Below, piece after piece: positions 4,631 through 35,052 of a stretch of DNA of 40,971 nt. How positions within the stretch are numbered: the stretch's first letter is position 1; the number at the start of each line of letters is the position of its first letter. This stretch comes from a virus (taxonomy: Duplodnaviria > Caudoviricetes), in IMG/VR virus record IMGVR_UViG_3300044976_000016, positions 1 to 40,971 of that record; one strand, 5' to 3'. Both the position numbers and the translations under genes were made by a program. The notes beneath the pieces are model-generated. The model saw only the letters and a list, made by a program, of their open reading frames with translations. It was not told the origin of the DNA and did not search any database.

Positions 4631-5695
4631 ATGGGCAACGCGATCACCGACCTCCTGCAAGGCGCAAGTAACGCTGCGGCGTCCAACGTCAGCGGCCCGG
4701 TTGACCTGTTCGCTGCTGCGCTTCGTGCTCTTGGCGTGCCTGTTCCTGAGAACGCGCTTCTCGGCTCGAAGTGGATGGAGGAGCGTGGGCTGACGAAGAA
4801 GCCGCAGAATGCGCTGATGGGCCTGCTGGGTGAGGCTGCCGGGCTGTCTGCTCCGATTGCCGCAGCGGCGAAGGCGCCGCAGATCGCGGCGGGGCTGCTG
4901 AAGCACGCTGACCAGTTCCAAGCCTACAACAAGGCTCTAGGGCCTGCTGGCGCTTCTCAGGCTGTGGTGTGGCACGGTTCGCCGCACAAGTTCGACAAGT
5001 TCGACTCTGCGCACATTGGGAAGGGCGAGGGGGCGCAGGCGTATGGGCATGGGCTGTATCTGGCTGAGTCGCCTGGGGTGGCTGGTTCATATGCAAAGAT
5101 GAACCCTGCGAGCACGGTAAAAGTTCAGCGCGTTTGGCCGTCGCGCGAACACCCAAACGGGGCGTATGAGGCGCTCATGGTGCGTGATAGCGGCCCCCTT
5201 GAAGAGCTTGGGGTGTTTGCGTCAAGGGCAGAAGCTGAAGCCGCGGCGCAGGCCGCCCGTGAATCTGCCAGCAACATCTACAAAGTAGACCTCCCCGACC
5301 CCCTAATAGCGCGGATGCTCGATTGGGATAAGCCGCTGCACAAACAGTCTGCGGAAGTGCAGCAGGCGATCAAAGATTTTGAGCCGATGCTGAAGGCGGC
5401 CGGCATGACAGACCCAAATGGCGGAACGTCTGGATTGCTTGGGAAAGGACTGTATGAGGCTCTTGGCTATGCGATGCGCAGCAAGGCGATAGAGCGCGGC
5501 ACTACGGCTGGCACGACATTGCAGCAGATGCAGGACAACTCATCCCGCGCACTACGGGCGGCCGGCATCCCCGGCATTCGCTACCTAGACAGCGGCAGCA
5601 GAGGCGCAGGCGCAGGCACTAGCAATTTCGTCGTCTTCCCGGGCGAGGAGAACGCGCTGCGCATCTTGGAGCGCAACGGTAGGCCGCTGCCATGA
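4631..5695 (+). CDS. Protein with ADP-ribosyltransferase-like domain of polyvalent proteins (ART-PolyVal-like)
   Basis: Motifs VWHGSPHKFDKF, GEGAQAYGHGLYLAE, IYKVDL, GIPGIRYLD..SR...NFVVF; SD GAGG upstream. Confidence 0.7.
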   Translation: MGNAITDLLQGASNAAASNVSGPVDLFAAALRALGVPVPENALLGSKWMEERGLTKKPQNALMGLLGEAAGLSAPIAAAAKAPQIAAGLLKHADQFQAYNKALGPAGASQAVVWHGSPHKFDKFDSAHIGKGEGAQAYGHGLYLAESPGVAGSYAKMNPASTVKVQRVWPSREHPNGAYEALMVRDSGPLEELGVFASRAEAEAAAQAARESASNIYKVDLPDPLIARMLDWDKPLHKQSAEVQQAIKDFEPMLKAAGMTDPNGGTSGLLGKGLYEALGYAMRSKAIERGTTAGTTLQQMQDNSSRALRAAGIPGIRYLDSGSRGAGAGTSNFVVFPGEENALRILERNGRPLP

Positions 5696-6502: not shown

Positions 6503-6521
6503 GGTTCAACCCCTGTTCGGC
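6503..6521 (+). mobile_element. attI-like simple site 3 (GGTTCAA-CCCCT-GTTCGGC)
   Basis: GTT core at a gene end (…GPNRG*); preceded by the 16-bp repeat. Confidence 0.4.
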
Positions 6522-6880
6522 CCTATGGCCGCAGCAGCGAGCCTGTACATGCGCCGCGCTAGCTCTATTGCGTACGCTTCTTGTGCATGCACTGGCTCGC
6601 CGCATTCAGCGCCGGCCCACTCCTCTGCAATCTCGTGCAGCGCGCGGCGCAGCCGCTCTATCTCGGCCTTTGCATCGCGCAGCATGGCGGGGCTCGGCAT
6701 GTGATCGCCCCTAGCCGCCTCCGCTGCTGGGCGCCACCGCTCGCGCTCTGCGGCCATGGCGGAATCGAGCGCGGCTTGGTCGTACACCGGCCCCCATTCG
6801 CTGACGCTACTGTGGCTTGGCACGCGCTTGCGGAAGATCCAGCTATCTAGCCAGCGCCACCCGCAGGGCTGTACGTTCAT
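6506..6880 (-). CDS. Hypothetical protein (MNVQPCGWRW...AAERERW...EIERLR)
   Basis: SD-like GAAGGGG before ATG; phage early-region motifs. Confidence 0.6.
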   Translation of the reverse strand: MNVQPCGWRWLDSWIFRKRVPSHSSVSEWGPVYDQAALDSAMAAERERWRPAAEAARGDHMPSPAMLRDAKAEIERLRRALHEIAEEWAGAECGEPVHAQEAYAIELARRMYRLAAAAIGPNRG

Positions 6881-6890
6881 GTGATCCCCT

Positions 6891-7181
6891 TCATTGCAGC
6901 GCCCGGCTTCCGAGATGGTGAGGAACTTGGCGCGAAAGCCAGCGCAAGCACTGCTTGAGCGTGCCGCAGTATTCGACCTCGCCTGTCTCCATGTCCCGCA
7001 GCCGGCACGATGTGTAGCCAAGGCGCGGCTCGATCTGCCACTCCCGCCCACCGTGATGGCGAAGGTCAAGCGGTATCACGTCGCGCTCGTCGATGATTGG
7101 CTCGCGGTCTGGGATGCCGATGGAACGCTCATAGTCGGCGCGGTGCTCGGCCCAGCGGAGGGGGCGTTTGGGATTATGCAT
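6891..7181 (-). CDS. Hypothetical protein
   Basis: 96-aa ORF fitting between neighbours on the operon strand. Confidence 0.55.
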   Translation of the reverse strand: MHNPKRPLRWAEHRADYERSIGIPDREPIIDERDVIPLDLRHHGGREWQIEPRLGYTSCRLRDMETGEVEYCGTLKQCLRWLSRQVPHHLGSRALQ

Positions 7182-7202
7182 GGCGGCAAAGTTGCGCGAC
7201 GT

Positions 7203-7221
7203 TGCCTAAAACACGTTAGGC
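7203..7221 (+). mobile_element. attI-like simple site 4 (TGCCTAA-AACAC-GTTAGGC), heading the attC array
   Basis: Resembles the class 1 attI core CCCTAAAACAAAGTT (one base shorter); its R end matches R'' of the next attC at 9/10. Confidence 0.55.
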
Positions 7222-7646
7222 CCGCTTCTCTTGCGAGCCGCCAAGTCTATGAACGCTTGGCAGTTCGTCGCGTCGCACGGCGTGTGATGCCTATGATCCG
7301 GGTCTTCAATCTCCACGCACGCGCCTTGGCCGTCTTCGCACTTGTGCGCGCACTGCACGATGGTTTGCCACCGCTCGCGCTCTGCGGCCACGGCTTCATC
7401 TATCCGGCGTTGCCACTCAATCGGGTGTCCGACCGCCTCAAGTGCGCCAGAGCACTCGCCCAGTTCGGAGCGCAGGCGGTCAATCTCGTCTGCAGCTGCG
7501 TCGGCCTCATCAATCAGCACTTGCAGCGCGTGCATGGCCGGGCGCGTGTTCGTGAACGTGTAGCGCATCACCTCGTTCACGGCTTCGCGCAACGGGCCCA
7601 ACCCGTCAGTCAACCGGACCTTGGCCGGCGTTGCTTGGTCAGTCAT
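7206..7646 (-). CDS. Cassette A hypothetical protein (MTDQATPAKVRLTDGLGP...GPNVF)
   Basis: SD AGGAG and ATG lie in the loop of attC 7596-7690. Confidence 0.65.
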   Translation of the reverse strand: MTDQATPAKVRLTDGLGPLREAVNEVMRYTFTNTRPAMHALQVLIDEADAAADEIDRLRSELGECSGALEAVGHPIEWQRRIDEAVAAERERWQTIVQCAHKCEDGQGACVEIEDPDHRHHTPCDATNCQAFIDLAARKRSGPNVF

Positions 7647-7690
7647 CGTTGCTCCTGTTGCGGCCAAGGCCGGTTACTTCTACGTTGTGC
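7596..7690 (+). mobile_element. attC-like site 1
   Basis: GCCCAAC-CCGTC-AGT(C)AACCGG(A)CCTTGGCCG...CGGCCAAGGCCGGTTACT-TCTAC-GTTGTGC. Confidence 0.85.
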
Positions 7691-7697
7691 CCCAGCC

Positions 7698-8552
7698 TTA
7701 CGCCACTGCCAGGACATGCCCACGCGGCACCTTGAAACCGGCCGCCTTGGCGTGCCCACCACCGCCGTACTGCTTCGCCACCTCCGACACGTCCACGCCT
7801 TCGTCGGTGGCGCGCAGGCCGAACACGCGGCCCTCGGCCGTGTCCCAGTAGCAGGCCGCGAACGGCTCGCCCTGCGCCATTAGGTGCGCCGCGTCGCTCA
7901 CCAGCGTGTAGGGCAGGCTGGCCACCGGCACGTCATAGGCGCCGATCACCATGCGCCGCTTGCACACCGCGACCAGCTCGGCCACATCCTTGTGGTGCTT
8001 GCGCTCGATGGCGGCGCCCGCCGCGGTCATCTTCAGCAGTTCCACCTGATCGGCGCTCATCAGCTTGTCCCACAACTCGAAGCTGTATTCGTGCGAGAAC
8101 ACGAACGCCTGAATCTCGCGCGTGCCCGGCAGCTTGAAGCGCCACAGGTCGCGGTCCTCCACATGGCCCAGCAGCAGCGGGCGGTCTTCGCCGGGGAAAA
8201 GGTAGTCCCAGGCCAGCGTGGCGCCGCTGCGGTTCAGGTCGGTGAAATGCGCCAGTTGCTTCGGCTCGCCGGTCCACGAGTCCTGCATGAACAGCGGCTG
8301 CAGGTCTTCGATGGCGGTCTTGTGGTGGTCGATCAGGCACACGCTGTTGGCCTCGGCCAGCATGCGCTCCACCACCGCGCGCTTGTAGCTGAAGTCCACC
8401 AAGAACACGTCGCGCCCGCGCACGTCGGGCGGGTCTTGCTGGTACACGCCGGCCACGTAGTCAGCGCCGGTGCCGTACTTCCGCCAGAAGCACCAGGCGG
8501 CGCTGAAGCCGTCCGCGCAGTTGCCGTGGTAGATCACAAGGGGTCGGTTCAC
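7698..8552 (-). CDS. DHH/DHHA1-family phosphoesterase (NrnB/oligoribonuclease-like), cassette B
   Basis: Motifs YHGNCADG, LVDF, IDHH, EDRDLW, GGGGH..AAGF; SD AAGGA before GTG. Confidence 0.85.
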   Translation of the reverse strand: MNRPLVIYHGNCADGFSAAWCFWRKYGTGADYVAGVYQQDPPDVRGRDVFLVDFSYKRAVVERMLAEANSVCLIDHHKTAIEDLQPLFMQDSWTGEPKQLAHFTDLNRSGATLAWDYLFPGEDRPLLLGHVEDRDLWRFKLPGTREIQAFVFSHEYSFELWDKLMSADQVELLKMTAAGAAIERKHHKDVAELVAVCKRRMVIGAYDVPVASLPYTLVSDAAHLMAQGEPFAACYWDTAEGRVFGLRATDEGVDVSEVAKQYGGGGHAKAAGFKVPRGHVLAVA

Positions 8553-8582
8553 TCGTCTTTCCTTTGGCTTCGGGTGAGAGGG

Positions 8583-8640
8583 GCACAACCCCTCAGTCAA
8601 CGCGACGGCCTACGGCCGCGCGTTACTTCGATCGTTAGGC
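8583..8640 (+). mobile_element. attC-like site 2 (58 bp)
   Basis: GCACAAC-CCCTC-AGT(C)AACGCG(A)CGGCC-TAC-GGCCGCGCGTTACT-TCGATC-GTTAGGC; same architecture as aadA-type 59-base elements. Confidence 0.9.
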
Positions 8641-8642
8641 GT

Positions 8643-8840
8643 CTATTCGTCCTGCATAGATTTCAGCCCCATCGATTCGCGCAGCATCCGTTCCACCTGA
8701 AACAGTGCTTCACGAACCGCGCCAATTTCGTCCACGCTGTACGTCACCAAGTGGCTGGCGTCTTTGTAGCCTTCCCACTTGACCGTGCCGGAGTCAAGGC
8801 GGCGGCGCTTTCCAGTGCGAATCTGAATTTCAATGTCCAT
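8643..8840 (-). CDS. Cassette C hypothetical protein (MDIEIQIRTGKRRR...)
   Basis: Single ORF filling the cassette; stop 2 bp from R'. Confidence 0.6.
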   Translation of the reverse strand: MDIEIQIRTGKRRRLDSGTVKWEGYKDASHLVTYSVDEIGAVREALFQVERMLRESMGLKSMQDE

Positions 8841-8869
8841 CGTCGTTTTCCGTGTTCGTTCACCAAGAC

Positions 8870-8932
8870 GCCTAACTGTCGCTTCGAGCGGACGGCCCCC
8901 AAGGGGCCGCGCGCTCAAGCTAATCGTTAGGC
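8870..8932 (+). mobile_element. attC-like site 3
   Basis: GCCTAAC-TGTC-GCTT(C)GAGCGG(A)CGGCCCC-CAA-GGGGCCGCGCGCTCAAGC-TAATC-GTTAGGC. Confidence 0.88.
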
Positions 8933-8940
8933 CACGCAAT

Positions 8941-9138
8941 TCAGTAGTCGCGCGCCCGTGCCGCAGCTTCGCGGCTCTCTTTGGTGCTCGTCAGCGCCTG
9001 GGAATACATAGCCGCGTACCCATTGGATGCCGGCTCCACAGCAACGCCTCCGGCCGGCGTCCAGCCGCGATCCAGCAACTCATTCACCTTCAGCTCAAGC
9101 TCGCTTGGCCCGTAGCCGGTAGCAATCTGGTAGTCCAT
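8941..9138 (-). CDS. Cassette D small protein, DUF1737-like
   Basis: Pattern Y.I.....L...VNE.L..GW...GG....Y.QA; SD AGGAG. Confidence 0.6.
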   Translation of the reverse strand: MDYQIATGYGPSELELKVNELLDRGWTPAGGVAVEPASNGYAAMYSQALTSTKESREAAARARDY

Positions 9139-9165
9139 CGTTCTCTCCTTCGGCCACCATGCGTG

Positions 9166-9252
9166 GCCTAACCCGTCACTCCAAGCGGACGCCCGGCGGC
9201 ATCCGCGCCCTTCGGCCCTGCCGTGCAGGCGCCGCTTAGTTCTGCGTTCGGC
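9166..9252 (+). mobile_element. attC-like site 4
   Basis: GCCTAAC-CCGTC-ACT(CC)AAGCGG(A)CGCC...GGCGCCGCTTAGT-TCTGC-GTTCGGC. Confidence 0.85.
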
Positions 9253-9253
9253 T

Positions 9254-9633
9254 TCACTTCTGCGCGCCGACGCTCATGAACGGCACAGGGTGCTAGGCAC
9301 GATGGAATAGCGCACGGTTAGGCTTGTCTTCACGGGTTGCGTGTCGCTCGTGGCGCCGTCCGCCTCCTTAACGTCTGCCTGTTCGGCGCGGATGTTGAAA
9401 ATGCTCAGTGCCTGCCAGGGCGCGATGAGCGTGAACCCATCGTTCTCGATGCCCTTGATCGCTCCCCCGACGGTGATGACGCCGCGGTGCCCTGTCGGCA
9501 CGGTGCGAATCGGCCAGAACATCACCAGCAGGACCAGCAGCACGAACACAGCCATGCCGTCGCGCACCAACGGGAATACGCGAACGGCATTCCCGCGCGG
9601 GGTTGCTTCAAGGTATCGATTCAGAAAGCTCAT
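9254..9633 (-). pseudogene. SPFH/prohibitin (band 7) gene with apparent internal deletion, cassette E
   Basis: TM helix then TVPTGHRGV...APWQ...TSDTQPV...VRY breaks off at ~110 aa; an out-of-frame tail PVPFMSVGAQK* ends next to R'. Confidence 0.65.
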
Positions 9634-9667
9634 TCATTCCTCCAGTTGTGGCTTCGTTGTGGGTGAA

Positions 9668-9724
9668 GCCGAACCCATCGCTGAACGGGACGCCTAGCGG
9701 CGCCCGTTAGCTCCACCGTTAGGC
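9668..9724 (+). mobile_element. attC-like site 5 (57 bp)
   Basis: GCCGAAC-CCATC-GCT(G)AACGGG(A)CGCC-TAGC-GGCGCCCGTTAGC-TCCACC-GTTAGGC. Confidence 0.9.
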
Positions 9725-9964
9725 GTCGAAGTCATCGCGCGCCGGTTTGTTGATTTGACGCTCCGCTTTGTGGGTGCGCCGCTTGTGGTGCTTCCCGCCT
9801 CGTGGCGACAAAGTGCCGCCCGCCTTGTTGTAGGGCCGCGCGCTCCAGTATTCGTAGCCGGTGCCTTTGGGCTCCTTGCAGGTGCGTTTCCTCGCGCTCA
9901 CGACGCCTAACCTTTCGCTCAAGGGCGACCCAGCACGGCGGGTCGCGTTGTCACGCTTCGGCAC
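9719..9964 (-). CDS. Cassette F small basic protein (…KGTGYEYWSARP…HKAERQ)
   Basis: TAA stop inside R' of site 5; start uncertain (GTG in the attC 6 loop or near 9901). Confidence 0.55.
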   Translation of the reverse strand: MPKRDNATRRAGSPLSERLGVVSARKRTCKEPKGTGYEYWSARPYNKAGGTLSPRGGKHHKRRTHKAERQINKPARDDFDA

Positions 9965-10006
9965 GGCCCGTGCGCCGTGCTGATCGCCTTAGCTCAATCG
10001 TTAGGC
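9905..10006 (+). mobile_element. attC-like site 6
   Basis: GCCTAAC-CTTTC-GCT(C)AAGGGCGACCCAGCACGGCG...CGCCGTGCTGATCGCCTTAGC-TCAATC-GTTAGGC. Confidence 0.85.
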
Positions 10007-10375
10007 CCGCTCCAGCCATCGGCTAGCCAGAAACGCCACCGCTGCGGCCTTGTGCTCGTGCTTTGGCGCGAAGGAGCCCTGAATCACCTGCAGGTGCCGC
10101 ATCGCCTTCCGCAGGTCGATTCCCGCCCTCGGCGTCGGCGCTTGCTTCAGTCCGCAGTAAAACCACTCAGCCTGCCATTGCGCCCACGGGTGCGCGCTGC
10201 ACTTGAACTCGTCAGGAATCTGGCTGTACTCAGGCATCAGTTTCAGGGCGCGCGCCGGGAACGCGCAGTCGGCATCTGTCACATCATGCGGCGTGTCAAA
10301 GTCCGCGCGCTCCGGCTCCAGCCGCCCAACCCCTCGGTGAACGGCGACGCCCGCCGGCTGGTCACTCTTGCTCAT
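10001..10375 (-). CDS. Cassette G phage-type hypothetical protein (…SFAPKHEHKAAAVAFL)
   Basis: SD AGGAGG and ATG in the attC 7 loop; TAA stop in R' of site 6. Confidence 0.7.
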   Translation of the reverse strand: MSKSDQPAGVAVHRGVGRLEPERADFDTPHDVTDADCAFPARALKLMPEYSQIPDEFKCSAHPWAQWQAEWFYCGLKQAPTPRAGIDLRKAMRHLQVIQGSFAPKHEHKAAAVAFLASRWLERA

Positions 10376-10425
10376 CTGCCACCTCCTGCGCGGCCGTCGG
10401 TCGCGCGTTACCTCGAACGTTGGGC
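10324..10425 (+). mobile_element. attC-like site 7 (imperfect inner stem)
   Basis: GCCCAAC-CCCTC-GGT(G)AACG...CGTTACC-TCGAAC-GTTGGGC. Confidence 0.75.
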
Positions 10426-10622
10426 GTCTTACTGCGCACCGACTCAAGCGCTCCGCAACGCGGGCAGAGCTCATCGGCGGCGCCGTATGCTGCGCGGCAG
10501 TGCGCGCACTCGTATCCAGTAACCTGCTTACTGGTTTGCGGCTTATCCAGCAACCCAGGTTGCTGCCTTGCGGCCTGCCGTGCGGCATCGCGCCGCGCGT
10601 GATCTGTGGTGTACCAGCTCAT
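10362..10622 (-). CDS. Zinc-ribbon protein (CAHC...CPRC); C-terminus reads through the attC 7 right arm
   Basis: Two CxxC pairs; ATGA-coupled to the upstream gene; ends KTPNVRGN... Confidence 0.6.
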   Translation of the reverse strand: MSWYTTDHARRDAARQAARQQPGLLDKPQTSKQVTGYECAHCRAAYGAADELCPRCGALESVRSKTPNVRGNARPTAAQEVADEQE

Positions 10623-10807
10623 GTGTCGTCCCATTCCAGCATCCAGTGCGGCATTGCCACTCGCGCCATCATCCACTCCGGCCACGCCCGCACTTCGCGC
10701 TGCGCTGCCGTTATCTGCGCCAGTAGAGCCGCGCGCTTCGGACACGGCCGCCCAACACGCCGTTCGAGCCGAGGCGCAACGGCAGCTTTTCGCTTCGGGT
10801 CAGTCAT
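10619..10807 (-). CDS. Cassette H hypothetical protein (MTDPKRKAAVAPRLERRVGRP...)
   Basis: ATG in the loop of attC 8; N-terminus encoded by the attC arm. Confidence 0.55.
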   Translation of the reverse strand: MTDPKRKAAVAPRLERRVGRPCPKRAALLAQITAAQREVRAWPEWMMARVAMPHWMLEWDDT

Positions 10808-10837
10808 CGCGCGCCCGGCTCAACGGCAACGTTGGGC
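10750..10837 (+). mobile_element. attC-like site 8
   Basis: GCCCAAC-ACGC-CGTT(C)GAGCCG(A)GGCGC...GCGCCCGGCTCAACG-GCAAC-GTTGGGC. Confidence 0.85.
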
Positions 10838-10977
10838 GTCTTGCTGCACACGGCCCGCGCCACGTTAAGCGCTCTGAGCTTCGCGTCGATGTCGGCAACC
10901 GGCTCGCGCATGAAGTCGATGGTGATGCCGTGCTCATGGCCCTGCGCTTCCGGGTCGCGGCAAGCCGCGCCGTGCAA

Positions 10978-10996
10978 CTTAGCTCCCACGTTAGGC
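10978..10996 (+). mobile_element. attC right half-site (L' CTTAGC-TCCCAC-R' GTTAGGC); left arm missing
   Basis: Same L'/R' spacing as sites 5 and 6; contains the TAA of gene 10991..11218. Confidence 0.6.
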
Positions 10997-11218
10997 CCTG
11001 CGCACTGCGGCTGTGCAGTCCCATCCCACATTTTCACTGGGCTTCACTCCGCGCCGTCTGCACTCTGTCATGTAGTGCGCAAGCGCCTGGTCTGCAGCAT
11101 GGTCGAGTGCCGCCTGCCAGCAGCGGCGCAATCGCCGCGTCTCTAGGTCGTCGTCGCTCGGCAGGTACTTTCCACCGCGACACTCTGCTTCCCACTTAGC
11201 CCACTCATCAAATTTCAT
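10991..11218 (-). CDS. Hypothetical protein (MKFDEWAKWE...RCWQAAL)
   Basis: SD GAGGA; stop lies in the R' box. Confidence 0.6.
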   Translation of the reverse strand: MKFDEWAKWEAECRGGKYLPSDDDLETRRLRRCWQAALDHAADQALAHYMTECRRRGVKPSENVGWDCTAAVRRA

Positions 11219-11258
11219 GTTGTCCTCGCTGTAGGTGCGCTGTTAAGCGGACTGCCTG

Positions 11259-11281
11259 CGTTAACATTGCGCTCAAGCGGA
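11259..11281 (+). mobile_element. attC left half-site (CGTTAAC-ATTGC-GCT(C)AAGCGG(A)); right arm missing
   Basis: R''/L'' spacing as in site 6; lies within a 31-aa minus-strand ORF 11215..11310 (MSEPTQAVGAPLERNV...). Confidence 0.5.
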
Positions 11282-11313
11282 GCACCAACGGCCTGGGTAG
11301 GTTCACTCATTTC

Positions 11314-11532
11314 TCAGGCCTTCAATTCAAAGCGCAATCGGTCAACGAAGTCTGCGCACTCGTTTCTGTAGCGCGCCCATCCCGCGTAAGGCGTGGGAGG
11401 CTGCTTGGGAAGCGCTTGCAAAATGCGCGTCACCAACGGGCGATCGTCTTCCTGTAGTGGGCGCACTTCCGCGCGCTCCGGCGCCAGGCCGAACCCTGCG
11501 TTCGAGCCGTTCAGCAGCATCGGGCGCTTCAC
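11314..11532 (-). CDS. Hypothetical protein
   Basis: GTGA-coupled chain in the early-left operon. Confidence 0.5.
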   Translation of the reverse strand: MKRPMLLNGSNAGFGLAPERAEVRPLQEDDRPLVTRILQALPKQPPTPYAGWARYRNECADFVDRLRFELKA

Positions 11533-12763: not shown

Positions 12764-13096
12764 TCACGCCACCATCGCCTGCATGGCCTGCTGCAGCGCC
12801 TTCGCGCGCTCGCGGTGCCTGCTCTGCCGCTCGGCATGCGTTCGCGGTGCGGGCCGGGGCGCGTTGCGTCCCTTGCCCAGCTTGTACGCCCGGAGCGTCC
12901 GTCGGCCTCGGGTGTCCTCGTGCCACGCGGCAACATGGATCAGCCCGCGAGCGAACAACGTGGCGATGTAGCGCCGCGTCGTGGTGTAGCTGACGCCTGT
13001 CTCGTCGCTGATGTCCACCACCGACACGGGTCCGTGCATCAGGGCTTCGATCATGATGGCCGACGACAGGTGATTGAGAGTTGACGGTCGTTTCAT
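12764..13096 (-). CDS. Winged-helix DNA-binding protein
   Basis: SVVDISDETGVSYTTTRRYI HTH followed by IHVAAW…YKLG wing. Confidence 0.65.
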   Translation of the reverse strand: MKRPSTLNHLSSAIMIEALMHGPVSVVDISDETGVSYTTTRRYIATLFARGLIHVAAWHEDTRGRRTLRAYKLGKGRNAPRPAPRTHAERQSRHRERAKALQQAMQAMVA

Positions 13097-13803
13097 GCCG
13101 CCTCTTTCGCCGGATTGGCCTTGATGAACGCCCGCAAGCGGGACTCAGGTGTGGAACCGCCGCCGGGGCCTTTCAGGAAGCCCCACACACACATCTTTTC
13201 CTCGTTCGTCGGCAGCGAGTAGTAGCCCTTCGCGGCTTCCAGTTCGCGGCCGGATGTGAACAGGTCCAGCATGTCGGCGGCGTACACCTCAAGCTCGTCA
13301 ACACGCTCCTGAGTCAAGCCGTCCATGCGCTCGATGCGCTCCTGATCCCGCCAGTGCTTGTCAGCGGACGCGACGTACTTGGAGTCATCCCACATGCCCG
13401 AGAAGATGTCGCCAGCGAAGCCGAGGTAACTCGCGCACTTCACCAGCGCGTCGGTGACGGACTTCTTTGGCGCGTCCTCGTCCACCATCAGCCCGCCGTC
13501 GCTTTTCTTGTACGTGGCCTTCGTCTGCCCGATCTGCTGCAACTCCCCGCGCTTGCCGTCGAGCACGTACCAAAGCGACACGACGGCGATGTGCAGGGTG
13601 TCGGTGTCGGTCAGGCGCTCCATGCGCTCACTGGCGATCTGGAAGCCCCAGCCGATGCCGCATGGCCCGAACTCGTCGGTCAGGCGCTCGACGATCCAGT
13701 ACGGTTTCGGACTGTTGCCCTTGTACTGCTTGCCGGTGATCGGCTTTACCGCCTTCGGGTCGGTGGTGAAGGCGCGTTCCCACAGTGCCTTATTCGGGTT
13801 CAC
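13093..13803 (-). CDS. Rad52/Sak-like single-strand annealing protein
   Basis: Motifs LTDEFGPCGIGWG, DEDAPKKSVTDALVKCASYLGFAGDIF, DDSKY. Confidence 0.75.
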   Translation of the reverse strand: MNPNKALWERAFTTDPKAVKPITGKQYKGNSPKPYWIVERLTDEFGPCGIGWGFQIASERMERLTDTDTLHIAVVSLWYVLDGKRGELQQIGQTKATYKKSDGGLMVDEDAPKKSVTDALVKCASYLGFAGDIFSGMWDDSKYVASADKHWRDQERIERMDGLTQERVDELEVYAADMLDLFTSGRELEAAKGYYSLPTNEEKMCVWGFLKGPGGGSTPESRLRAFIKANPAKEAA

Positions 13804-15357: not shown

Positions 15358-15386
15358 ATTAGACAAGGCTGACCAAGGCTTGTCAA
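15358..15386 (-). promoter_or_regulatory. pL-like sigma70 promoter (TTGACA-17-TCTAAT) with TTAGACA/TGTCTAA operator-like boxes
   Basis: Perfect -35 and 17-bp spacer; TTAGACA recurs inverted at ~15396 and at ~15723 in pR. Confidence 0.7.
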
Positions 15387-15435
15387 TACAAAACTGTCTA
15401 ATCCCGACAAAAATACAAGGGATTGCGGGGCCTAC

Positions 15436-15741
15436 TCAAGGCGCCCGGTACAGCAGTTCCCACGCCCGCAGGCCGCATCCTGCCGCAATTTCTTCCAGCT
15501 TGTCCAGCGTCACGGCATGCTGGCCTTTCGCGGCCCTGGCGATCAGCCGCACATCAAGCCCGCGAGCCATGGCCCAGGCACGCACGCTAGGGCGCTTCCC
15601 ACGCGGTGTGTCGGCCGCGATCATCCGCCGCAAATTTGCGGCAAGAATGGCTCGAGCCGACTCGTGATGCAGAAAAAGACCGCGCGGCTTAGTATGGTAT
15701 GAATGTTGAAAAACTTGCACTCTTAGACAGGATTGCCGCAC
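15436..15741 (-). CDS. Short XRE-family HTH repressor (CI-like); start uncertain
   Basis: ILAANLRRM…VTLDKLEEIAAGCGLRAWELL; divergent from the cro-like gene; no peptidase domain. Confidence 0.7.
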   Translation of the reverse strand: MRQSCLRVQVFQHSYHTKPRGLFLHHESARAILAANLRRMIAADTPRGKRPSVRAWAMARGLDVRLIARAAKGQHAVTLDKLEEIAAGCGLRAWELLYRAP

Positions 15742-15744
15742 AAT
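15715..15744 (+). promoter_or_regulatory. pR-like promoter (TTGCAC-18-CACAAT), probably giving a leaderless cro mRNA
   Basis: -10 ends 6 nt before ATG 15751; no SD; TTAGACA box in the spacer. Confidence 0.55.
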
Positions 15745-15750
15745 GCTCCC

Positions 15751-30404: not shown

Positions 30405-30640
30405 GCGAGTACGAGCTAATTCACGTATCGCCGTCAGACGACGATTCGCGGCTTATTGAGGCGCTGAAACAGTACAAGGCAGCCGAATCGTTTGAACAGG
30501 AGTTGGCAGCCATTGACATGATTTCTTCGTTGATTCGCAGGAGCGCTTACGAGCGTTGCGCGGCCATCGCAGAGGATTACGACTCGTGGGACGTAAATCC
30601 TGCAAGCAACATTGCAGACAGAATCCGCGCACTGAAATGA
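30401..30640 (+). CDS. Small hypothetical protein (ERCAAIAE…IADRIRALK)
   Basis: Overlaps both neighbours by 4 bp. Confidence 0.5.
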   Translation: MSEYELIHVSPSDDDSRLIEALKQYKAAESFEQELAAIDMISSLIRRSAYERCAAIAEDYDSWDVNPASNIADRIRALK

Positions 30641-32097
30641 GCGAGTACGCCGAACTTTCCAAGCTGATTGACGATGACCCGGACGAGGCGGTCAAGCTGG
30701 CAACCGACAAGCTCAACGAGAACCCAGACGATGCCTTGAGCCTGTTCGTGATCGCGGAGGCGTATTCACGAGCCGAGCGGTTTGGGCTCGCGGCGAATCT
30801 GTACCAGCGGATCACGCAACTCCGACCGGATCGGCTGGAGCCGTGGAACAACCTCGGGATGTGCTATTCCGGGCTCAATCTGGATCACAAGGCCCGCGAA
30901 GCGTTCATGCAGGCGCACCGGGTGGACCCGGCCAGCCACCTCCCTACGGCAAACCTCGCGATGGCGGCTTTCCAGGCCGGGGACATCCCGCAGGCAATCA
31001 GTTGGTGCAAGAAGACGCTTGCCATTGAACCGGAGTCTCGGGCCGCGCAGTCAACCCTGTCCCTGTGCCAGCTCTCCAGAGGCGAATGGGAGGATGGTTT
31101 CAGGAACTACCAAGCCAGTTTGGGCGGCAAGTTCCGCAAGATCAACAAGTATCGGCCCGGCGACGATAACGAACCGTTTTGGGATGGCACTCCCGGTAAA
31201 TCGGTGGTGGTTTATGGGGAGCAGGGTATCGGCGACGAAATCATGTTCTCGTCGTGCATTCTTGATGCAGAGAAAACCTGCTCGACGGTGATTCTGGAAT
31301 GCGACCACAGGCTTACAAACCTGTTCAAGCGGTCATTCCCGAATGTCCACGTTTACGGAACGCGCCGGCAAAAGGAAGGCGTGACGTGGATTGCCGAGGA
31401 AACGATTGACTACTCAATTCCAATTGGGCAGTTGCCTCAGTTTTTCAGAAAGTCCCCGCAGGACTGCCCAGGAATGCCTTACCTGACGGCCGATCCCGAA
31501 AGGCGCACGCAATGGCGTGCTTTGTTCGATTCGTGGGGGCCGAAACCGAAAATCGGCATTTGCTGGTCAGGCGGCACAAAAGCGAACAGGCTTAAAGAAA
31601 GAGCAATCGGGTTGCAGGCATTTAAGCCGCTGTTCGAGGCAATTGACGCCGATTGGGTAAGCCTGCAATACAAAGACCCGACGAAGGAAATTCGTGAGTC
31701 GGGGTTTCACGTGAAGCACTTCAAACGCGCATGTGAAACCGACGACTATGACGATACCGCGGCGTTGATCGCGGAACTGGATATGGTGATTGGCGTACAC
31801 ACTGCCGCGCACCATATGGCCGGGGCTCTAGGAGTCCCGGGGATCGTACTCGTGCCCTCTAAGACGATCTGGATTTACGAGCTTGACTCCTTGCCTTGGT
31901 ACAGGTCGGCCACCTTGTGCAAACAGAAGAAAGGCGAGACGTGGCCACAGACGTTAAAGAGGCTTGCAAATGATCCCTGTTTGGGTGGGCTACGATCCCA
32001 GAGAGGCGGTGGCGTTCCACGTCTTCACCCAGTCGCTGATTCAGCACGCAACGAAACCCGTATCGGTCAAACCGATGGCGTTGCACTTGCTGCGTGA
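30637..32097 (+). CDS. TPR-repeat protein with GT-B (GT9-like) glycosyltransferase domain
   Basis: TPRs (PWNNLGMCY…), then EQGIGDEIMF, IGICWSGG, WVSLQY, DTAALIAELDMVI…HMAGALG, PWY. Confidence 0.8.
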   Translation: MSEYAELSKLIDDDPDEAVKLATDKLNENPDDALSLFVIAEAYSRAERFGLAANLYQRITQLRPDRLEPWNNLGMCYSGLNLDHKAREAFMQAHRVDPASHLPTANLAMAAFQAGDIPQAISWCKKTLAIEPESRAAQSTLSLCQLSRGEWEDGFRNYQASLGGKFRKINKYRPGDDNEPFWDGTPGKSVVVYGEQGIGDEIMFSSCILDAEKTCSTVILECDHRLTNLFKRSFPNVHVYGTRRQKEGVTWIAEETIDYSIPIGQLPQFFRKSPQDCPGMPYLTADPERRTQWRALFDSWGPKPKIGICWSGGTKANRLKERAIGLQAFKPLFEAIDADWVSLQYKDPTKEIRESGFHVKHFKRACETDDYDDTAALIAELDMVIGVHTAAHHMAGALGVPGIVLVPSKTIWIYELDSLPWYRSATLCKQKKGETWPQTLKRLANDPCLGGLRSQRGGGVPRLHPVADSARNETRIGQTDGVALAA

Positions 32098-32650
32098 CTA
32101 CGAAGAAACGCACACCGACGGCTCCAACCAGTTCATTTACTCTCGGTTTCTTGTCCCATACATGATGGGGTTCAAGGGCTGGGCGGTGTTTTGCGATGGC
32201 GATATGGTCGTCAAGGACGACATTGCAAAACTTTGGGCGCTGCGCTCCGACGAGTATGGGGCCATGGTTGTAAAGCACGATTACCAGTCGAAGCACAGGA
32301 CAAAGTATGTCGGCACTTCGATGGAAACCATCAATCCGAATTACCCGCGGAAGAACTGGTCATCGGTGATCCTGTGGAACTGCGAGCACCCGGCAAACCT
32401 GATTCTGACTCCTGAATATGTCCGGGCGCATCCTGGATCGGTGCTGCACCGGTTCTCGCATTTGCTGGAGTCGGAACTCGGAGAACTGCCGAAGGAATGG
32501 AACTGGCTTGTCGGTGAGTATCCCGAAAACCCCGATGCCAAGCTGATTCATTACACGCTCGGGATTCCGGCAATCGAGGCGTACAAGGATTGCGAGCACG
32601 CGCGGGAATGGCGTGAGGCGATGAAGGCCGCGACGGAGGTGCAAACGTGA
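31970..32650 (+). CDS. GT-A fold glycosyltransferase (GT8-like)
   Basis: GYDPRE…SRFLVP…FCDGDM (DxD)…KNWSSV…EWNWLV…HYTLG.P. Confidence 0.8.
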   Translation: MIPVWVGYDPREAVAFHVFTQSLIQHATKPVSVKPMALHLLRDYEETHTDGSNQFIYSRFLVPYMMGFKGWAVFCDGDMVVKDDIAKLWALRSDEYGAMVVKHDYQSKHRTKYVGTSMETINPNYPRKNWSSVILWNCEHPANLILTPEYVRAHPGSVLHRFSHLLESELGELPKEWNWLVGEYPENPDAKLIHYTLGIPAIEAYKDCEHAREWREAMKAATEVQT

Positions 32651-33573
32651 TTACTGATCGCATCGACGCCATTACGCTGATTCCGCCGTCGCATCGGTCT
32701 GAAGTTTGTCCATCCCCTAAGTCGGTCAAAATCGAGTTGACTGCAACCTGCAATTACTCGTGCTCTTTCTGCGTCAAATCGCTCCGAAAGGACGATGGGC
32801 ACATGGACCGGGCTTTGTATAGCCGGATCATTCGGGAACTGCGGCAATCCGGCGTTGAGGAACTAGGCGTTTTCTACATCGGCGAGTCGTTTACCTGCAA
32901 ATGGCTCCCGGATGCGATTGCCGAGGCCAAGGAAGTCGGATTCCCGTATGTGTTCCTGACGACCAACGGCAGCGCGGCGACGCCGGCCCGTGTGCGTGCG
33001 TGCATGGAAGCGGGGCTCGACAGCCTGAAGTTCTCGATCAACTTCGACACGCCCGAGCAGCTTGCCGCGGTCGCGCAGGTGTCGCCGACCTACTGGCGCA
33101 AGGCCATCGACAACCTCAAGGCCGCGCGCGAAATCAGGGACGACGGTCAGTATCAGTGCGGCCTGTACGCATCGTCGATCCAGTTCGACGGCGAACAGGG
33201 CGAGCGCATGCGCGCCGTCATCGAAGAGATTCGGCCCTTCGTGGACGAGTCGTATTTTCTTCCTCTTTATGGCATGAGCGGGGCAAGCAAGGCAGCGGGC
33301 TGGAAGCCACAGCCCGGGAATCCTGGCCGGCTCGATGCCATGCGCGACCCGCTGCCATGCTGGGCCGCCTTCACCGAGGGGCACGTTACCAAGGATGGGC
33401 TTTTGGCCGCATGCTGCTTCGGTACGGGGTCTGATGGCGACCTCATCATGGCCGACCTGAAGCAGGTCAGCTTCATGGAAGGCTGGAACTCGCTGGCGTA
33501 CCGGAGCCTGCGCAGGGCTCACCTGAAGCGCGATGTCTCGAAGACCGCGTGCGCGGGGTGTGCTGCGGCATGA
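32647..33573 (+). CDS. Radical SAM protein with SPASM/twitch-like C-terminus
   Basis: CNYSCSFC (CxxxCxxC), GES, TTNG, C…CC…CAGC. Confidence 0.9.
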   Translation: MITDRIDAITLIPPSHRSEVCPSPKSVKIELTATCNYSCSFCVKSLRKDDGHMDRALYSRIIRELRQSGVEELGVFYIGESFTCKWLPDAIAEAKEVGFPYVFLTTNGSAATPARVRACMEAGLDSLKFSINFDTPEQLAAVAQVSPTYWRKAIDNLKAAREIRDDGQYQCGLYASSIQFDGEQGERMRAVIEEIRPFVDESYFLPLYGMSGASKAAGWKPQPGNPGRLDAMRDPLPCWAAFTEGHVTKDGLLAACCFGTGSDGDLIMADLKQVSFMEGWNSLAYRSLRRAHLKRDVSKTACAGCAAA

Positions 33574-34358
33574 GGGTCACCTTCAAGCGGTGGTCGCCGG
33601 AACTGGCATCGACCCGATACCGCTCAATCATGCCCGAGCGGTGGCTGAGGGATCAAGGCGTCAGCGTGGGGACAGATTGGCTCGTGATCGGCAAACACGG
33701 CTGGTCGTGGCCGCAGGAAACCGAGGGCTTCGCTCGGGTCTGCTTCGACGTGTGCGACGACCATTTCGACTCCGAGAAGTGGGGCAGTCACTATCACGTC
33801 GGTTGTCGGGAAGCCGCCATCGTGACCTGCAACAGCCCGGAAATGGCGCGCGTCATCAAGGCGCAGACCGGCAAAGAGGCTGTCGTGATTCCGGATCCCT
33901 ACGAACAGCCGGAGATGGACCCGCGAATCTCCGACCGGCTGCTGTGGTTCGGGCACGGATCAAACCTGCCAGATTTGCTGCCGTGGCTGCCGAAGATTGG
34001 CGAGGTTGAGATTGTCTCGAACATCGCCAATCACCGGGTTACACCGTGGACGCACGCCAACATGGACGCTGCGTTTTCTCGGTCTGGCCTGGTGGTGATC
34101 CCCACTGGCAAAAGCATGGCGAAGTCGGGCAACCGGGCGATTGAGTCACTGCGCAGGGGCCTGTTCCCCGTGTGCGGATTCCTGCCCGCCTATGCCGACC
34201 TCGGGGTTTGGATAGGTGACATCGCTGACGGGGTGGATTGGGCGCTGAATCACCGTGGCGAGGCCATGAAGCGCATCAAGGCGTCGCAGGACTACATCAG
34301 GCATCAGTACAGCATCGACCGGATCGGAAGTCTATGGCTCCGCGCGCTTCGCCAGTAG
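33570..34358 (+). CDS. Putative glycosyltransferase-like protein
   Basis: AS.RYR…FDVCDDHF…VIPDPYE…LWFGH..N…KS.NR GT-B-like pattern. Confidence 0.6.
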   Translation: MRVTFKRWSPELASTRYRSIMPERWLRDQGVSVGTDWLVIGKHGWSWPQETEGFARVCFDVCDDHFDSEKWGSHYHVGCREAAIVTCNSPEMARVIKAQTGKEAVVIPDPYEQPEMDPRISDRLLWFGHGSNLPDLLPWLPKIGEVEIVSNIANHRVTPWTHANMDAAFSRSGLVVIPTGKSMAKSGNRAIESLRRGLFPVCGFLPAYADLGVWIGDIADGVDWALNHRGEAMKRIKASQDYIRHQYSIDRIGSLWLRALRQ

Positions 34359-34529
34359 CTCGATCTGTTCAGGAATGGTTCGCATTCCAAACATGGAAGC
34401 CAGATATTCGGCCAGGTCCATCATCCGCCCGTCTGTCCGCAGCGACGCTGGCAGTGGCACGCCGTAGCAGGCATGCAGCAAGAGGTCAACGATCCCCTCG
34501 GCTTCGTGCCGCGATAGGTCGATCTTCAT
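34332..34529 (-). CDS. Putative small antisense gene (MKIDLSRHEAEGIVDLL…)
   Basis: 65-aa ORF spanning the only gap in the late operon here. Confidence 0.4.
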   Translation of the reverse strand: MKIDLSRHEAEGIVDLLLHACYGVPLPASLRTDGRMMDLAEYLASMFGMRTIPEQIELLAKRAEP

Positions 34530-34536
34530 GACGGAC

Positions 34537-35052
34537 ATGGTACGCCTGAATCTCGGCTGTGGGAACAAGATTCTGCCCGGCTGGGTGAATGTCGATGTGG
34601 CTTCAAAGCGGCAACCGCCGGATGTCATTGCAGACGTTACCAAACCGCTCCCATTCGCGGATAATCACGCTGACGCGATTCAGGCGATCCACCTAATCGA
34701 GCACATGAACCGCTGGGACGTTCACGACATCCTGACCGACTGGTTCCGTGTACTGAAGCCGGGCGGACAACTTGTGCTTGATATGCCGTGCCTGGACAAG
34801 ATCATGAGGATGTATGCCCACTGCCTCATTGATGGCAAGACGTTGGATTGGCGATTGTGCGTCATGGGGCTGTTTGGCGATCCTCGGCACTGCGACGAGC
34901 TGATGATGCATCGCTGGTGCTATTCGACAGCGGAAATCAAGCAAACGCTAAAGCTGGTCGGATTCGAGAAGATCGAGATATCTGAGCCGACAACGCATAT
35001 CCCATTGCGAGACATGAGGGTGACAGGATGGCGACCAACTACACCGGGCTAA
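34537..35052 (+). CDS. Class I SAM-dependent methyltransferase
   Basis: LNLGCG…NVD…LPF…IHLIEH…RVLKPGG. Confidence 0.85.
   Translation: MVRLNLGCGNKILPGWVNVDVASKRQPPDVIADVTKPLPFADNHADAIQAIHLIEHMNRWDVHDILTDWFRVLKPGGQLVLDMPCLDKIMRMYAHCLIDGKTLDWRLCVMGLFGDPRHCDELMMHRWCYSTAEIKQTLKLVGFEKIEISEPTTHIPLRDMRVTGWRPTTPG

What the first reader, a model, noticed from the sequence alone, without database searches (positions are those of the whole stretch)
7206..11218. All cassette genes are inverted relative to attC polarity
Seen: the extrahelical bases are on the left arm of the + strand, so + is the attC top strand, yet every cassette ORF is on the - strand. Stops fall in or beside the R' box (TAA of CCTAAC at 9719, 10001, 10991; stops at 8643 and 9254). 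Established: in typical integrons genes are on the top strand and end near R''. Inference: this is a distinct phage-adapted cassette class read from the phage pL-like promoter (15358-15386). Such cassettes would be antisense to Pc, and so silent, if they landed in a host integron.
Basis: partly seen in the sequence, partly recalled or inferred. Interest (0 to 1): 0.75.

Follow-up and report, generated by a model that had tools for sequence, protein, structure and literature searches.

The report
Phage early operon built from cassettes
This complete 41-kb phage genome carries a row of small genes separated by integron-type recombination hairpins and ending in a predicted docking site, with every gene facing the opposite way to bacterial integron genes, as in dozens of other phages, many of which encode their own integron integrase and likely use it to swap genes in and out of their early operon.

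Summary
Confirmed. Eight attC sites (7596-10837) have + as top strand, while all genes are on the - strand. The polarity call holds on host arrays and on the published phage TJE1, both canonical. In other viral contigs 111 of 144 inter-attC segments carry a bottom-strand gene and 0 a top-strand gene only (hosts: 4 versus 30 of 94). 281 viral stretches encode IntI relatives. In the best 80, attC polarity is canonical towards intI but 70 of 77 cassette genes run with intI. Near-identical phages differ exactly at the G^TT crossover, and the DHH cassette recurs with other neighbours. One phage cassette sits reversed in a host chromosomal integron (84% aa). Likely mechanism: IntI supplied in trans inserts cassettes at the operon's distal end, and the phage early promoter reads them. 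Recombination and expression are untested. Ten literature searches found no description; this scan found the same class before on other genomes.

The parts
6504..6521 (+). second, weaker attI-like or secondary site (R box GTTCGGC 6515-6521); gene 6506-6880 reads through it
   Evidence: similar sequence left of the DHH cassette junction in L305; not otherwise tested
6506..6880 (-). 124-aa ORF of unknown function, ends GPNRG* across the 6515 site
6891..7181 (-). 96-aa ORF of unknown function in the place that intI holds in related phages; 72% identical homologue in the same place in L002
   Evidence: no Pfam, NCBIfam or PHROG hit
7204..7221 (+). predicted attI site, crossover G7215^T7216
   Evidence: same 18-mer heads arrays of 5-9 attC in 4 of 6 viral loci; 12 of 14 core bases match the site next to phage intI in L182 and 11 of 14 a host site
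7206..7646 (-). cassette 1 gene, 146 aa; RBS and ATG lie in the loop of attC1, stop lies in the attI L box
7596..7690 (+). attC1 (top strand +), 98% identical to an attC that fronts an unrelated gene in L141
7698..8552 (-). cassette 2 gene, DHH/DHHA1 phosphoesterase
   Evidence: phrog_4771, PF02272; cassette ends shared with L011, L014, L015
8583..8640 (+). attC2
8643..8840 (-). cassette 3 gene, 65 aa, unknown
8870..8932 (+). attC3
8941..9138 (-). cassette 4 gene, 65 aa, DUF1737-like (just under the Pfam cut-off)
9166..9252 (+). attC4 (two extra bases in L'')
9254..9633 (-). cassette 5 gene, SPFH/band 7 family, broken: main frame stops at 9274, a short piece in another frame stops at 9254
   Evidence: PF01145, phrog_200
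9668..9724 (+). attC5
9719..9901 (-). cassette 6 gene, about 60 aa, phrog_7399; stop is the TAA in R' of attC5
9905..10006 (+). attC6
10001..10375 (-). cassette 7 gene, 124 aa, phrog_36680; RBS and ATG in the loop of attC7, stop in R' of attC6
10324..10425 (+). attC7
10362..10553 (-). cassette 8, second ORF, Com-like zinc ribbon (start uncertain); reads through R' of attC7 and stops in its loop, overlapping the next start
10619..10807 (-). cassette 8, first ORF, 62 aa; ATG in the loop of attC8, overlapping the upstream stop (ATGA)
10750..10837 (+). attC8
10804..11037 (-). ORF of cassette 9, 5' end probably lost with the left arm of its attC; stops in the loop of attC8
   Evidence: loss is inferred
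10977..10996 (+). right arm only (L', R') of an eroded attC
10991..11218 (-). 75-aa gene, stop is the TAA in the R' box at 10990-10996
11215..11310 (-). 31-codon leader ORF running through the left arm at 11259, coupled to the ATG at 11218
11259..11278 (+). left arm only (R'', L'') of an eroded attC
11488..11507 (+). left arm (R'', L'') of an eroded attC, R' lost
15358..15386 (-). predicted early leftward promoter (TTGACA, 17 nt, TCTAAT)
   Evidence: sequence shown; not passed by the consensus scan; untested

Best explanation
The region is the distal part of the phage's leftward gene run, built from cassettes bounded by attC sites with the genes on the attC bottom strand, and it likely works as an integrase-less phage integron served by an IntI supplied in trans. 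A cassette runs from one G^TT crossover to the next on the + strand and carries the attC on its right, which here lies in front of its gene. IntI, from a co-resident phage of the IntI-bearing group or from the host chromosome, would fold-recognise the - strand hairpins, excise cassettes and insert new ones at the attI-type site at 7215. Because the genes are reversed, they would be read by the phage early promoter at 15386 and need no Pc; in IntI-bearing relatives intI is the next gene of the same run. Some attC loops supply RBS, start codon and the first 15-25 residues, and place a stop next to that start, which would couple translation of whichever gene lands upstream. New cassettes would enter far from the promoter; the eroded half-sites at 10977, 11259 and 11488 would be older cassettes becoming fixed genes. 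Shown: anatomy, polarity, gene strand, exchange at G^TT between genomes, IntI beside such arrays. Inferred: the enzyme acting here, transcription, coupling, age gradient.
For: attC anatomy and shuffle control. Gene strand: 111 reverse, 0 forward, 1 both, 32 uncalled of 144 viral segments against 4, 30, 1, 59 of 94 host segments; PHROG hits 17 of 70 bottom-strand and 0 of 70 top-strand ORFs (70 drawn from 125 segments). Functional polarity: among near-identical attC bodies 11 pairs share only the R''-side flank, 0 only the R'-side. R'' matches the upstream R' in 124 of 146 neighbours, 54 when shuffled; 6 of 8 in the window. DHH cassette alignments found by protein begin at 7682-7683 in L011, L014, L015 with other neighbours. 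L003/L006 and L165/L168/L169 part exactly at a crossover. Phage IntI passes TIGR02249 at 466 bits, cut-off 265; 281 of 312 viral stretches encode relatives; in the best 80, 78 upstream attC have canonical polarity to intI, 1 not, and 70 of 77 segments run with intI. Start inside attC in 46 of 287 viral sites; a stop in the read-through frame lies within -12..+20 nt of it in 37 of 46, against 8 of 46 in the control frame.
Against: No recombinase gene was found in this genome, so activity here cannot be shown; the one sequencing run that holds it shows no joint lacking a cassette. The plain longest-ORF test is less clean: 105 reverse to 58 forward of 163 viral segments, probably from open shadow frames in GC-rich DNA. 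The codon model was trained on this phage's own genes. Two of 8 window junctions have R''/R' mismatches. 47 pairs of near-identical attC share neither flank, which single R' crossovers do not explain. The promoter fails the consensus scan. The age gradient was seen only here and not tested across loci.
Confidence: 0.82

Rival explanations
1. The hairpins act mainly as shared boundary sequences at which the phage's own annealing protein swaps genes by homologous recombination; IntI is no longer involved.
For: No integrase found in the genome. A predicted recombination protein lies at 13093-13803 (PHROG 'exonuclease'; annealing function is my inference). 47 pairs of near-identical attC front unrelated genes. 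DHH genes with and without attC interleave on a tree.
Against: Flank sharing is one-sided, 11 to 0; exchange points fall at G^TT; window attC bodies are too unlike each other for easy homologous exchange (42% mean column identity); hairpins and both extrahelical bases are kept.
Confidence: 0.08
2. A recombinase other than IntI, or one that prefers the top strand, serves these sites, so the genes are not reversed for their own enzyme.
For: Earlier scan notes report non-IntI recombinases beside arrays in other phages (e1-9705115, e1-5950201; not checked here). Phage IntIs lie on their own side of a well-supported branch, so their strand choice is unmeasured.
Against: The enzyme beside these arrays passes the IntI model; the attC travels with its R''-side flank, as for bottom-strand cutting; 9 of 284 viral attC are at least 80% identical to host attC of the same length; a phage cassette sits in a host array with its attC in canonical polarity.
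Confidence: 0.05
3. The array is a piece of a host integron captured by chance, and the reversed genes are a rare host subset.
For: Host arrays hold some reversed cassettes (L286, L293); the same attI-like 18-mer occurs inside two host arrays (L098, L092); published phage integrons are captured host arrays (PMC9892861).
Against: Host arrays are mostly forward and TJE1 and M16-3 are forward, whereas viral arrays are reversed almost without exception; cargo hits phage families; the DHH cassette was seen only in phage-like runs of bottom-strand genes.
Confidence: 0.04

Closest known systems
Bacterial integrons (IntI, attI, attC cassettes, Pc); attC anatomy as in Nivina et al. 2016, PMC5027507 (passages read)
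   Same: attC boxes, extrahelical bases, purine-rich bottom spacers, G^TT crossover, attI at the array head, and intI on the opposite strand to the attC top strand in the IntI-bearing relatives.
   Different: Genes are on the bottom strand, attC precedes its gene and can encode its start, intI (where present) follows attI in the same direction as the genes, and expression would come from a phage promoter at the far end, not from Pc.
Phage-borne integrons and CALINs, Qi et al. 2023, PMC9892861 (parts 2-4 of 7 read, which cover results and discussion; supplement searched; figures not seen)
   Same: attC clusters without integrase in phage genomes; methyltransferase cargo; attC sites of phages recombined by IntI1 with bottom-strand preference.
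   Different: The two examples I checked, TJE1 and M16-3, are canonical in gene direction. The text I read does not describe reversed genes, attC-encoded starts or a phage group of IntI. PH101, P12002L and the other CALINs were not checked.
Inverted integron-integrase group (Treponema and others), Cury et al. 2016, PMC4889954 (passages read)
   Same: intI runs in the same direction as the cassette genes.
   Different: There intI is flipped against normal cassettes; here intI-attI-attC polarity is normal and the genes are flipped inside the cassettes.
Delta-attI-type cassettes, Gonzales Machuca et al. 2026, PMC12901181 (abstract only)
   Same: A unit closed by an attI-type site in place of attC, as 6516-7215 may be and as seen in host loci L098 and L092.
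   Different: Described for resistance cassettes of mobile integrons in normal orientation.

Membership tests
attC site | R''-L''-loop-L'-R' inverted boxes with AAC/GTT core, 57-141 bp, folding as a hairpin | tested here: met
   8 sites of 57-102 bp
attC site | extrahelical bases on the L'' arm (usually G, then T, on the bottom strand) | tested here: met
   G in 6 of 8, C in 2 of 8; T candidate in 8 of 8
attC site | recombined by IntI on the bottom strand | not testable with these tools
   indirect only: flank sharing 11 to 0
CALIN | two or more same-strand attC less than 4 kb apart, no intI nearby | tested here: met
complete integron | intI gene beside the array | tested here: not met
   no PF00589 match in the complete genome; met in relatives such as L085
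complete integron | attI at the head of the array | tested here: inconclusive
   position, recurrence and likeness to sites next to intI fit; no assay. Likeness to class 1 attI1 is recalled and was not tested
complete integron | cassette genes on the top strand, read from Pc | tested here: not met
   genes are on the bottom strand
gene cassette | moves as a unit with ends at G^TT, found with other neighbours | tested here: met
   shown for cassette 2; not shown for the other window cassettes
inverted integron-integrase group | [quoted passage not shown] | tested here: not met
   78 of 79 upstream attC point away from intI

The most novel reading that the evidence does not exclude
Temperate-type phages of Betaproteobacteria run their own integron economy and are cassette factories: attC-plus-leader modules are grafted onto ordinary phage genes, a phage lineage of IntI trades the resulting reversed cassettes at the end of the early operon, integrase-less phages such as this one hitch on it, and cassettes leak into host integrons. 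The window would hold a snapshot: attC1 with its 18-codon leader fronts a different gene in L141, and the body of its gene stands free with its own ATG in L018.
Probability: 0.45. Interest if true: 0.9.

Novelty: new variant of a known kind. Interest (0 to 1): 0.76.

Why it matters
Integron biology assumes that strand selectivity exists to put genes behind Pc. A large phage pool with the opposite gene direction shows the same chemistry used with another expression logic, and offers a site-specific explanation for the variable small-gene runs of phage early operons. How cassettes are first made is an open question (my knowledge; PMC8352920 speaks of 'cassette genesis' without a mechanism in the passages read). 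Here the same gene occurs with and without attC, and the same attC fronts unrelated genes, which makes the question testable by comparison and by assay. It also means that many odd N-termini of phage hypothetical proteins are translated attC arms.

Tried and rejected
Rfam and tRNA scans: nothing. GenBank phages: only the DHH gene matches, in Caulobacter and Brevundimonas phages. Exact attI 18-mer in bacterial genomes: 12 loci, 3 with attC found nearby (L088, L096, L098), L092 with attC parts seen by eye, the rest probably chance; the 14-mer in 1 of 301 family genomes; the two Rubrivivax-type intI genes do not have it next to them. LexA-box count did not separate viral from host intI (4 of 59, 4 of 30), so no claim on SOS control. 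The idea that secondary-site insertion bias makes reversed cassettes was dropped: no strand or replication bias in 10.1101/2022.09.11.507474 (section 31). Lagging-template placement of the bottom strand (PMC5371416, abstract and section 6) fits the GC skew of -0.068 left and +0.060 right, but the skew may only follow gene direction and the replication mode is unknown. DHH tree: automatic cassette labels were noisy and not clustered, so capture versus loss of attC is undecided. Reverse cassette L286: no phage homologue (weak PHROG hits only; 7 proteins without context). The 4 host reverse calls look like chance frames; L286 and L293 fell outside that test. Relatives of cassette 7 (2 loci) have no attC. 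No RNA holder listed. One DNA run, possibly the source, shows no joints. Rctr41k has an intI-like gene in a one-direction gene run but no attC by my scan. One search added nothing. No structure or complex prediction was run.
Full report
Setting. The window is a whole virus record with direct terminal repeats, 100% complete by CheckV. It has terminase, portal, scaffold, major head and ejection genes on the + strand and a leftward run of small genes from about 15300 to 6500. Searches for tyrosine and serine recombinases found none (Pfam scan of 52 ORFs). A divergent pair of small ORFs with promoter-like sites near 15400-15750 suggests a repressor/Cro switch (sequence; inference).

The observation. 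Seven attC sites score on the + strand, none on the - strand, none in 20 shuffled genomes; an eighth is 9166-9252. The extra base in L'' is G on the - strand in 6 of 8 and C in 2 of 8, a second candidate T follows in 8 of 8, and the - strand spacers hold 65 purines to 23 pyrimidines. PMC5027507 (passages) gives these as marks of the recombining bottom strand. Six - strand ORFs hit families, five long + strand ORFs do not. The polarity call was checked on outside cases. A Rubrivivax array scores 16 attC on + with genes on +. The TJE1 primer listed in the supplement of PMC9892861 for the bottom-strand construct (my reading of which strand it gives) has the same box order as the window's - strand, and in TJE1 it lies opposite the genes. 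M16-3 is also canonical.

(1) The array ends in GCCTAAAACAC^GTTAGGC, with the crossover after G7215. The exact 18-mer occurs in 6 viral contigs; 4 have 5-9 same-polarity attC directly after it, 1 has one, 1 runs off the contig. It matches the site next to phage intI in L182 at 12 of 14 core bases and a host site at 11 of 14. (2) The start codons at 7646, 10375 and 10807 lie inside attC loops, two with a clear RBS. Across loci 46 of 287 viral attC have this against 0 of 69 host sites; the host zero is partly built into the test, which asks for a bottom-strand gene. In 37 of the 46 the frame that reads through R' stops within -12..+20 nt of that start, against 8 in the control frame. (3) Half-sites remain at 10977, 11259 and 11488, on the promoter side.

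Generality. With a codon model trained on 19 window genes outside the array, 159 of 163 viral segments are reversed and 1 forward; hosts give 5 and 27 of 48. The bare longest-ORF test gives 105 to 58 for viruses and 4 to 43 for hosts. A strand-neutral test that asks for an RBS gives 111 reverse, 0 forward, 1 both, 32 uncalled of 144 viral segments, and 4, 30, 1, 59 of 94 segments from 61 host loci. In 70 segments drawn from 125, PHROG hit 17 bottom-strand and 0 top-strand ORFs; hits include DNA methyltransferases, Mom-like proteins, an HNH nuclease and a PAPS reductase. These loci were gathered by my own patterns and queries and include related phages, so the counts are not a census.

Mobility. 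R'' of a site matches R' of its left neighbour in 124 of 146 pairs, 54 after shuffling; this marks cassettes but is symmetric and does not fix polarity. Polarity is fixed by what travels with an attC: 11 pairs of near-identical sites share only the R''-side flank, 0 only the R'-side, 47 neither (pairs not independent). The DHH cassette, found by protein search, aligns from 7682-7683 in L011, L014 and L015, each with another left neighbour. A 22-nt junction pattern found 15 metagenome and 5 viral loci, some duplicates; all differ from the window left of the GTT, one (L307) goes on into another gene, none has an IntI hit, and the ten mapped have bottom-strand gene runs. L003 and L006 share flanks and first cassettes and part at an R' box.

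The enzyme. A DHH locus, L085, carries a 338-aa protein right after an attI-type site; it scores 466 bits on TIGR02249, cut-off 265. Five contigs have it at 100% identity with three different sequences left of the same crossover; L168 also has a separate phage integrase, SSB and lysozyme. A profile search gave 281 confirmed viral stretches, of which 80 were returned. In these, 78 upstream attC point away from intI and 1 does not; of 77 segments 70 genes run with intI, 1 against it (L192, a class 1-type intI), 6 uncalled; 39 of 55 loci with at least 1.5 kb upstream have an attC. On a quick, unrooted tree of 98 proteins a branch with SH-aLRT 100 separates 58 viral rows from 31 host plus 9 viral rows; the careful search did not finish, one row (L230) was mis-extracted, and both sets were picked by score. 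IntI over the cut-off is in 61 of 151 genomes of the order of G001, so a host enzyme is also likely at hand. The host of this phage is unknown; a betaproteobacterial host is inferred from site likeness only.

Leakage into hosts. One of 111 viral reversed-cassette proteins hits a host array: L119:6074-6439, in a RecT/YqaJ early region, is 84% identical in protein and 86% in DNA to the first cassette at attI in L293, a chromosomal integron flanked by succinate dehydrogenase genes, where it faces against its neighbours. L286:15765-15980 is a second reversed cassette without a shown phage homologue. Nine of 284 viral attC are at least 80% identical to same-length host attC. Silence in the host is untested.

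Hints on cassette making. attC1 is 98% identical to a site in L141 that gives the same 18-residue start to an unrelated gene, and the body of the window gene occurs in L018 with its own ATG and no attC in front. 28 of 33 attC families front two or more unrelated flanks. DHH genes at 94-97% protein identity have no attC (L007, L008). The direction of these events is not decided.

Literature. Ten searches found no paper on reversed phage cassettes or a phage group of IntI; the library lacks most subscription papers and preprint supplements are closed. Closest is PMC9892861 (parts 2-4 of 7 and a supplement search; figures not seen). Others seen: PMC4889954, PMC5027507, PMC8352920, 10.1101/2022.02.06.479319 (passages); PMC5371416 (abstract, section 6); 10.1101/2022.09.11.507474 (passages, section 31); PMC12901181 (abstract). 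This scan has noted the class on other genomes; those notes are not counted as support. One of them names a non-IntI recombinase, which my loci do not bear out for this site family.

Verdict. The finding is real and its reading holds. The array is a CALIN with a predicted attI, a member of a phage variant of the integron in which genes are reversed inside otherwise normal cassettes. It is not a complete integron. Recombination, expression and coupling are inferred and need the assays listed.

Noticed in passing
window 6891-7181 (-): A 96-aa gene of no known family sits where intI sits in relatives; the same gene follows the same attI in L002, and unrelated genes of about 95-103 aa follow it in L003 and L004.
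   Followed up: partly
L098 4794-5286; L092 41-535: In two host arrays a unit with a related gene of about 120 codons ends in the same attI-like 18-mer in place of an attC.
   Followed up: partly
window 8563-8576, 10732-10740, 10776-10787; many loci: A recurring leader motif CCGAAGCG(AAAGGA) on the gene strand near R'', often running into the RBS; may be part of a shared attC-plus-leader module.
   Followed up: no
window 9254-9633 (-): SPFH/band 7 gene is broken: short, with its probable C-terminal piece in another frame.
   Followed up: partly
window 6733-6760 and 7367-7394: 28-nt direct repeat at 96% identity shared by the genes 6506-6880 and 7206-7646 (AAERERW motif).
   Followed up: no
window 15358-15386 and 15720-15745: Divergent promoter-like sites with a short inverted repeat, around small HTH-like ORFs, in a complete genome with no integrase found; lifestyle unclear.
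   Followed up: no
window 30556-35052 (+): TPR protein, radical SAM/SPASM protein and SAM methyltransferase among the virion genes; possible virion or DNA modification cluster.
   Followed up: no
window 4631-5695 (+): Weak ART-PolyVal (ADP-ribosyltransferase of polyvalent proteins) hit, under the Pfam cut-off, in the last gene of the ejection-protein run.
   Followed up: no
L318 (KX853513.1) 4680-5678: GenBank virus Rctr41k has an IntI-like gene annotated xerD inside a one-direction gene run; no attC found by my scan.
   Followed up: partly
L302 4001; L305 935: The DHH cassette is inserted at sites that are not attC (secondary or attI-like sites).
   Followed up: no
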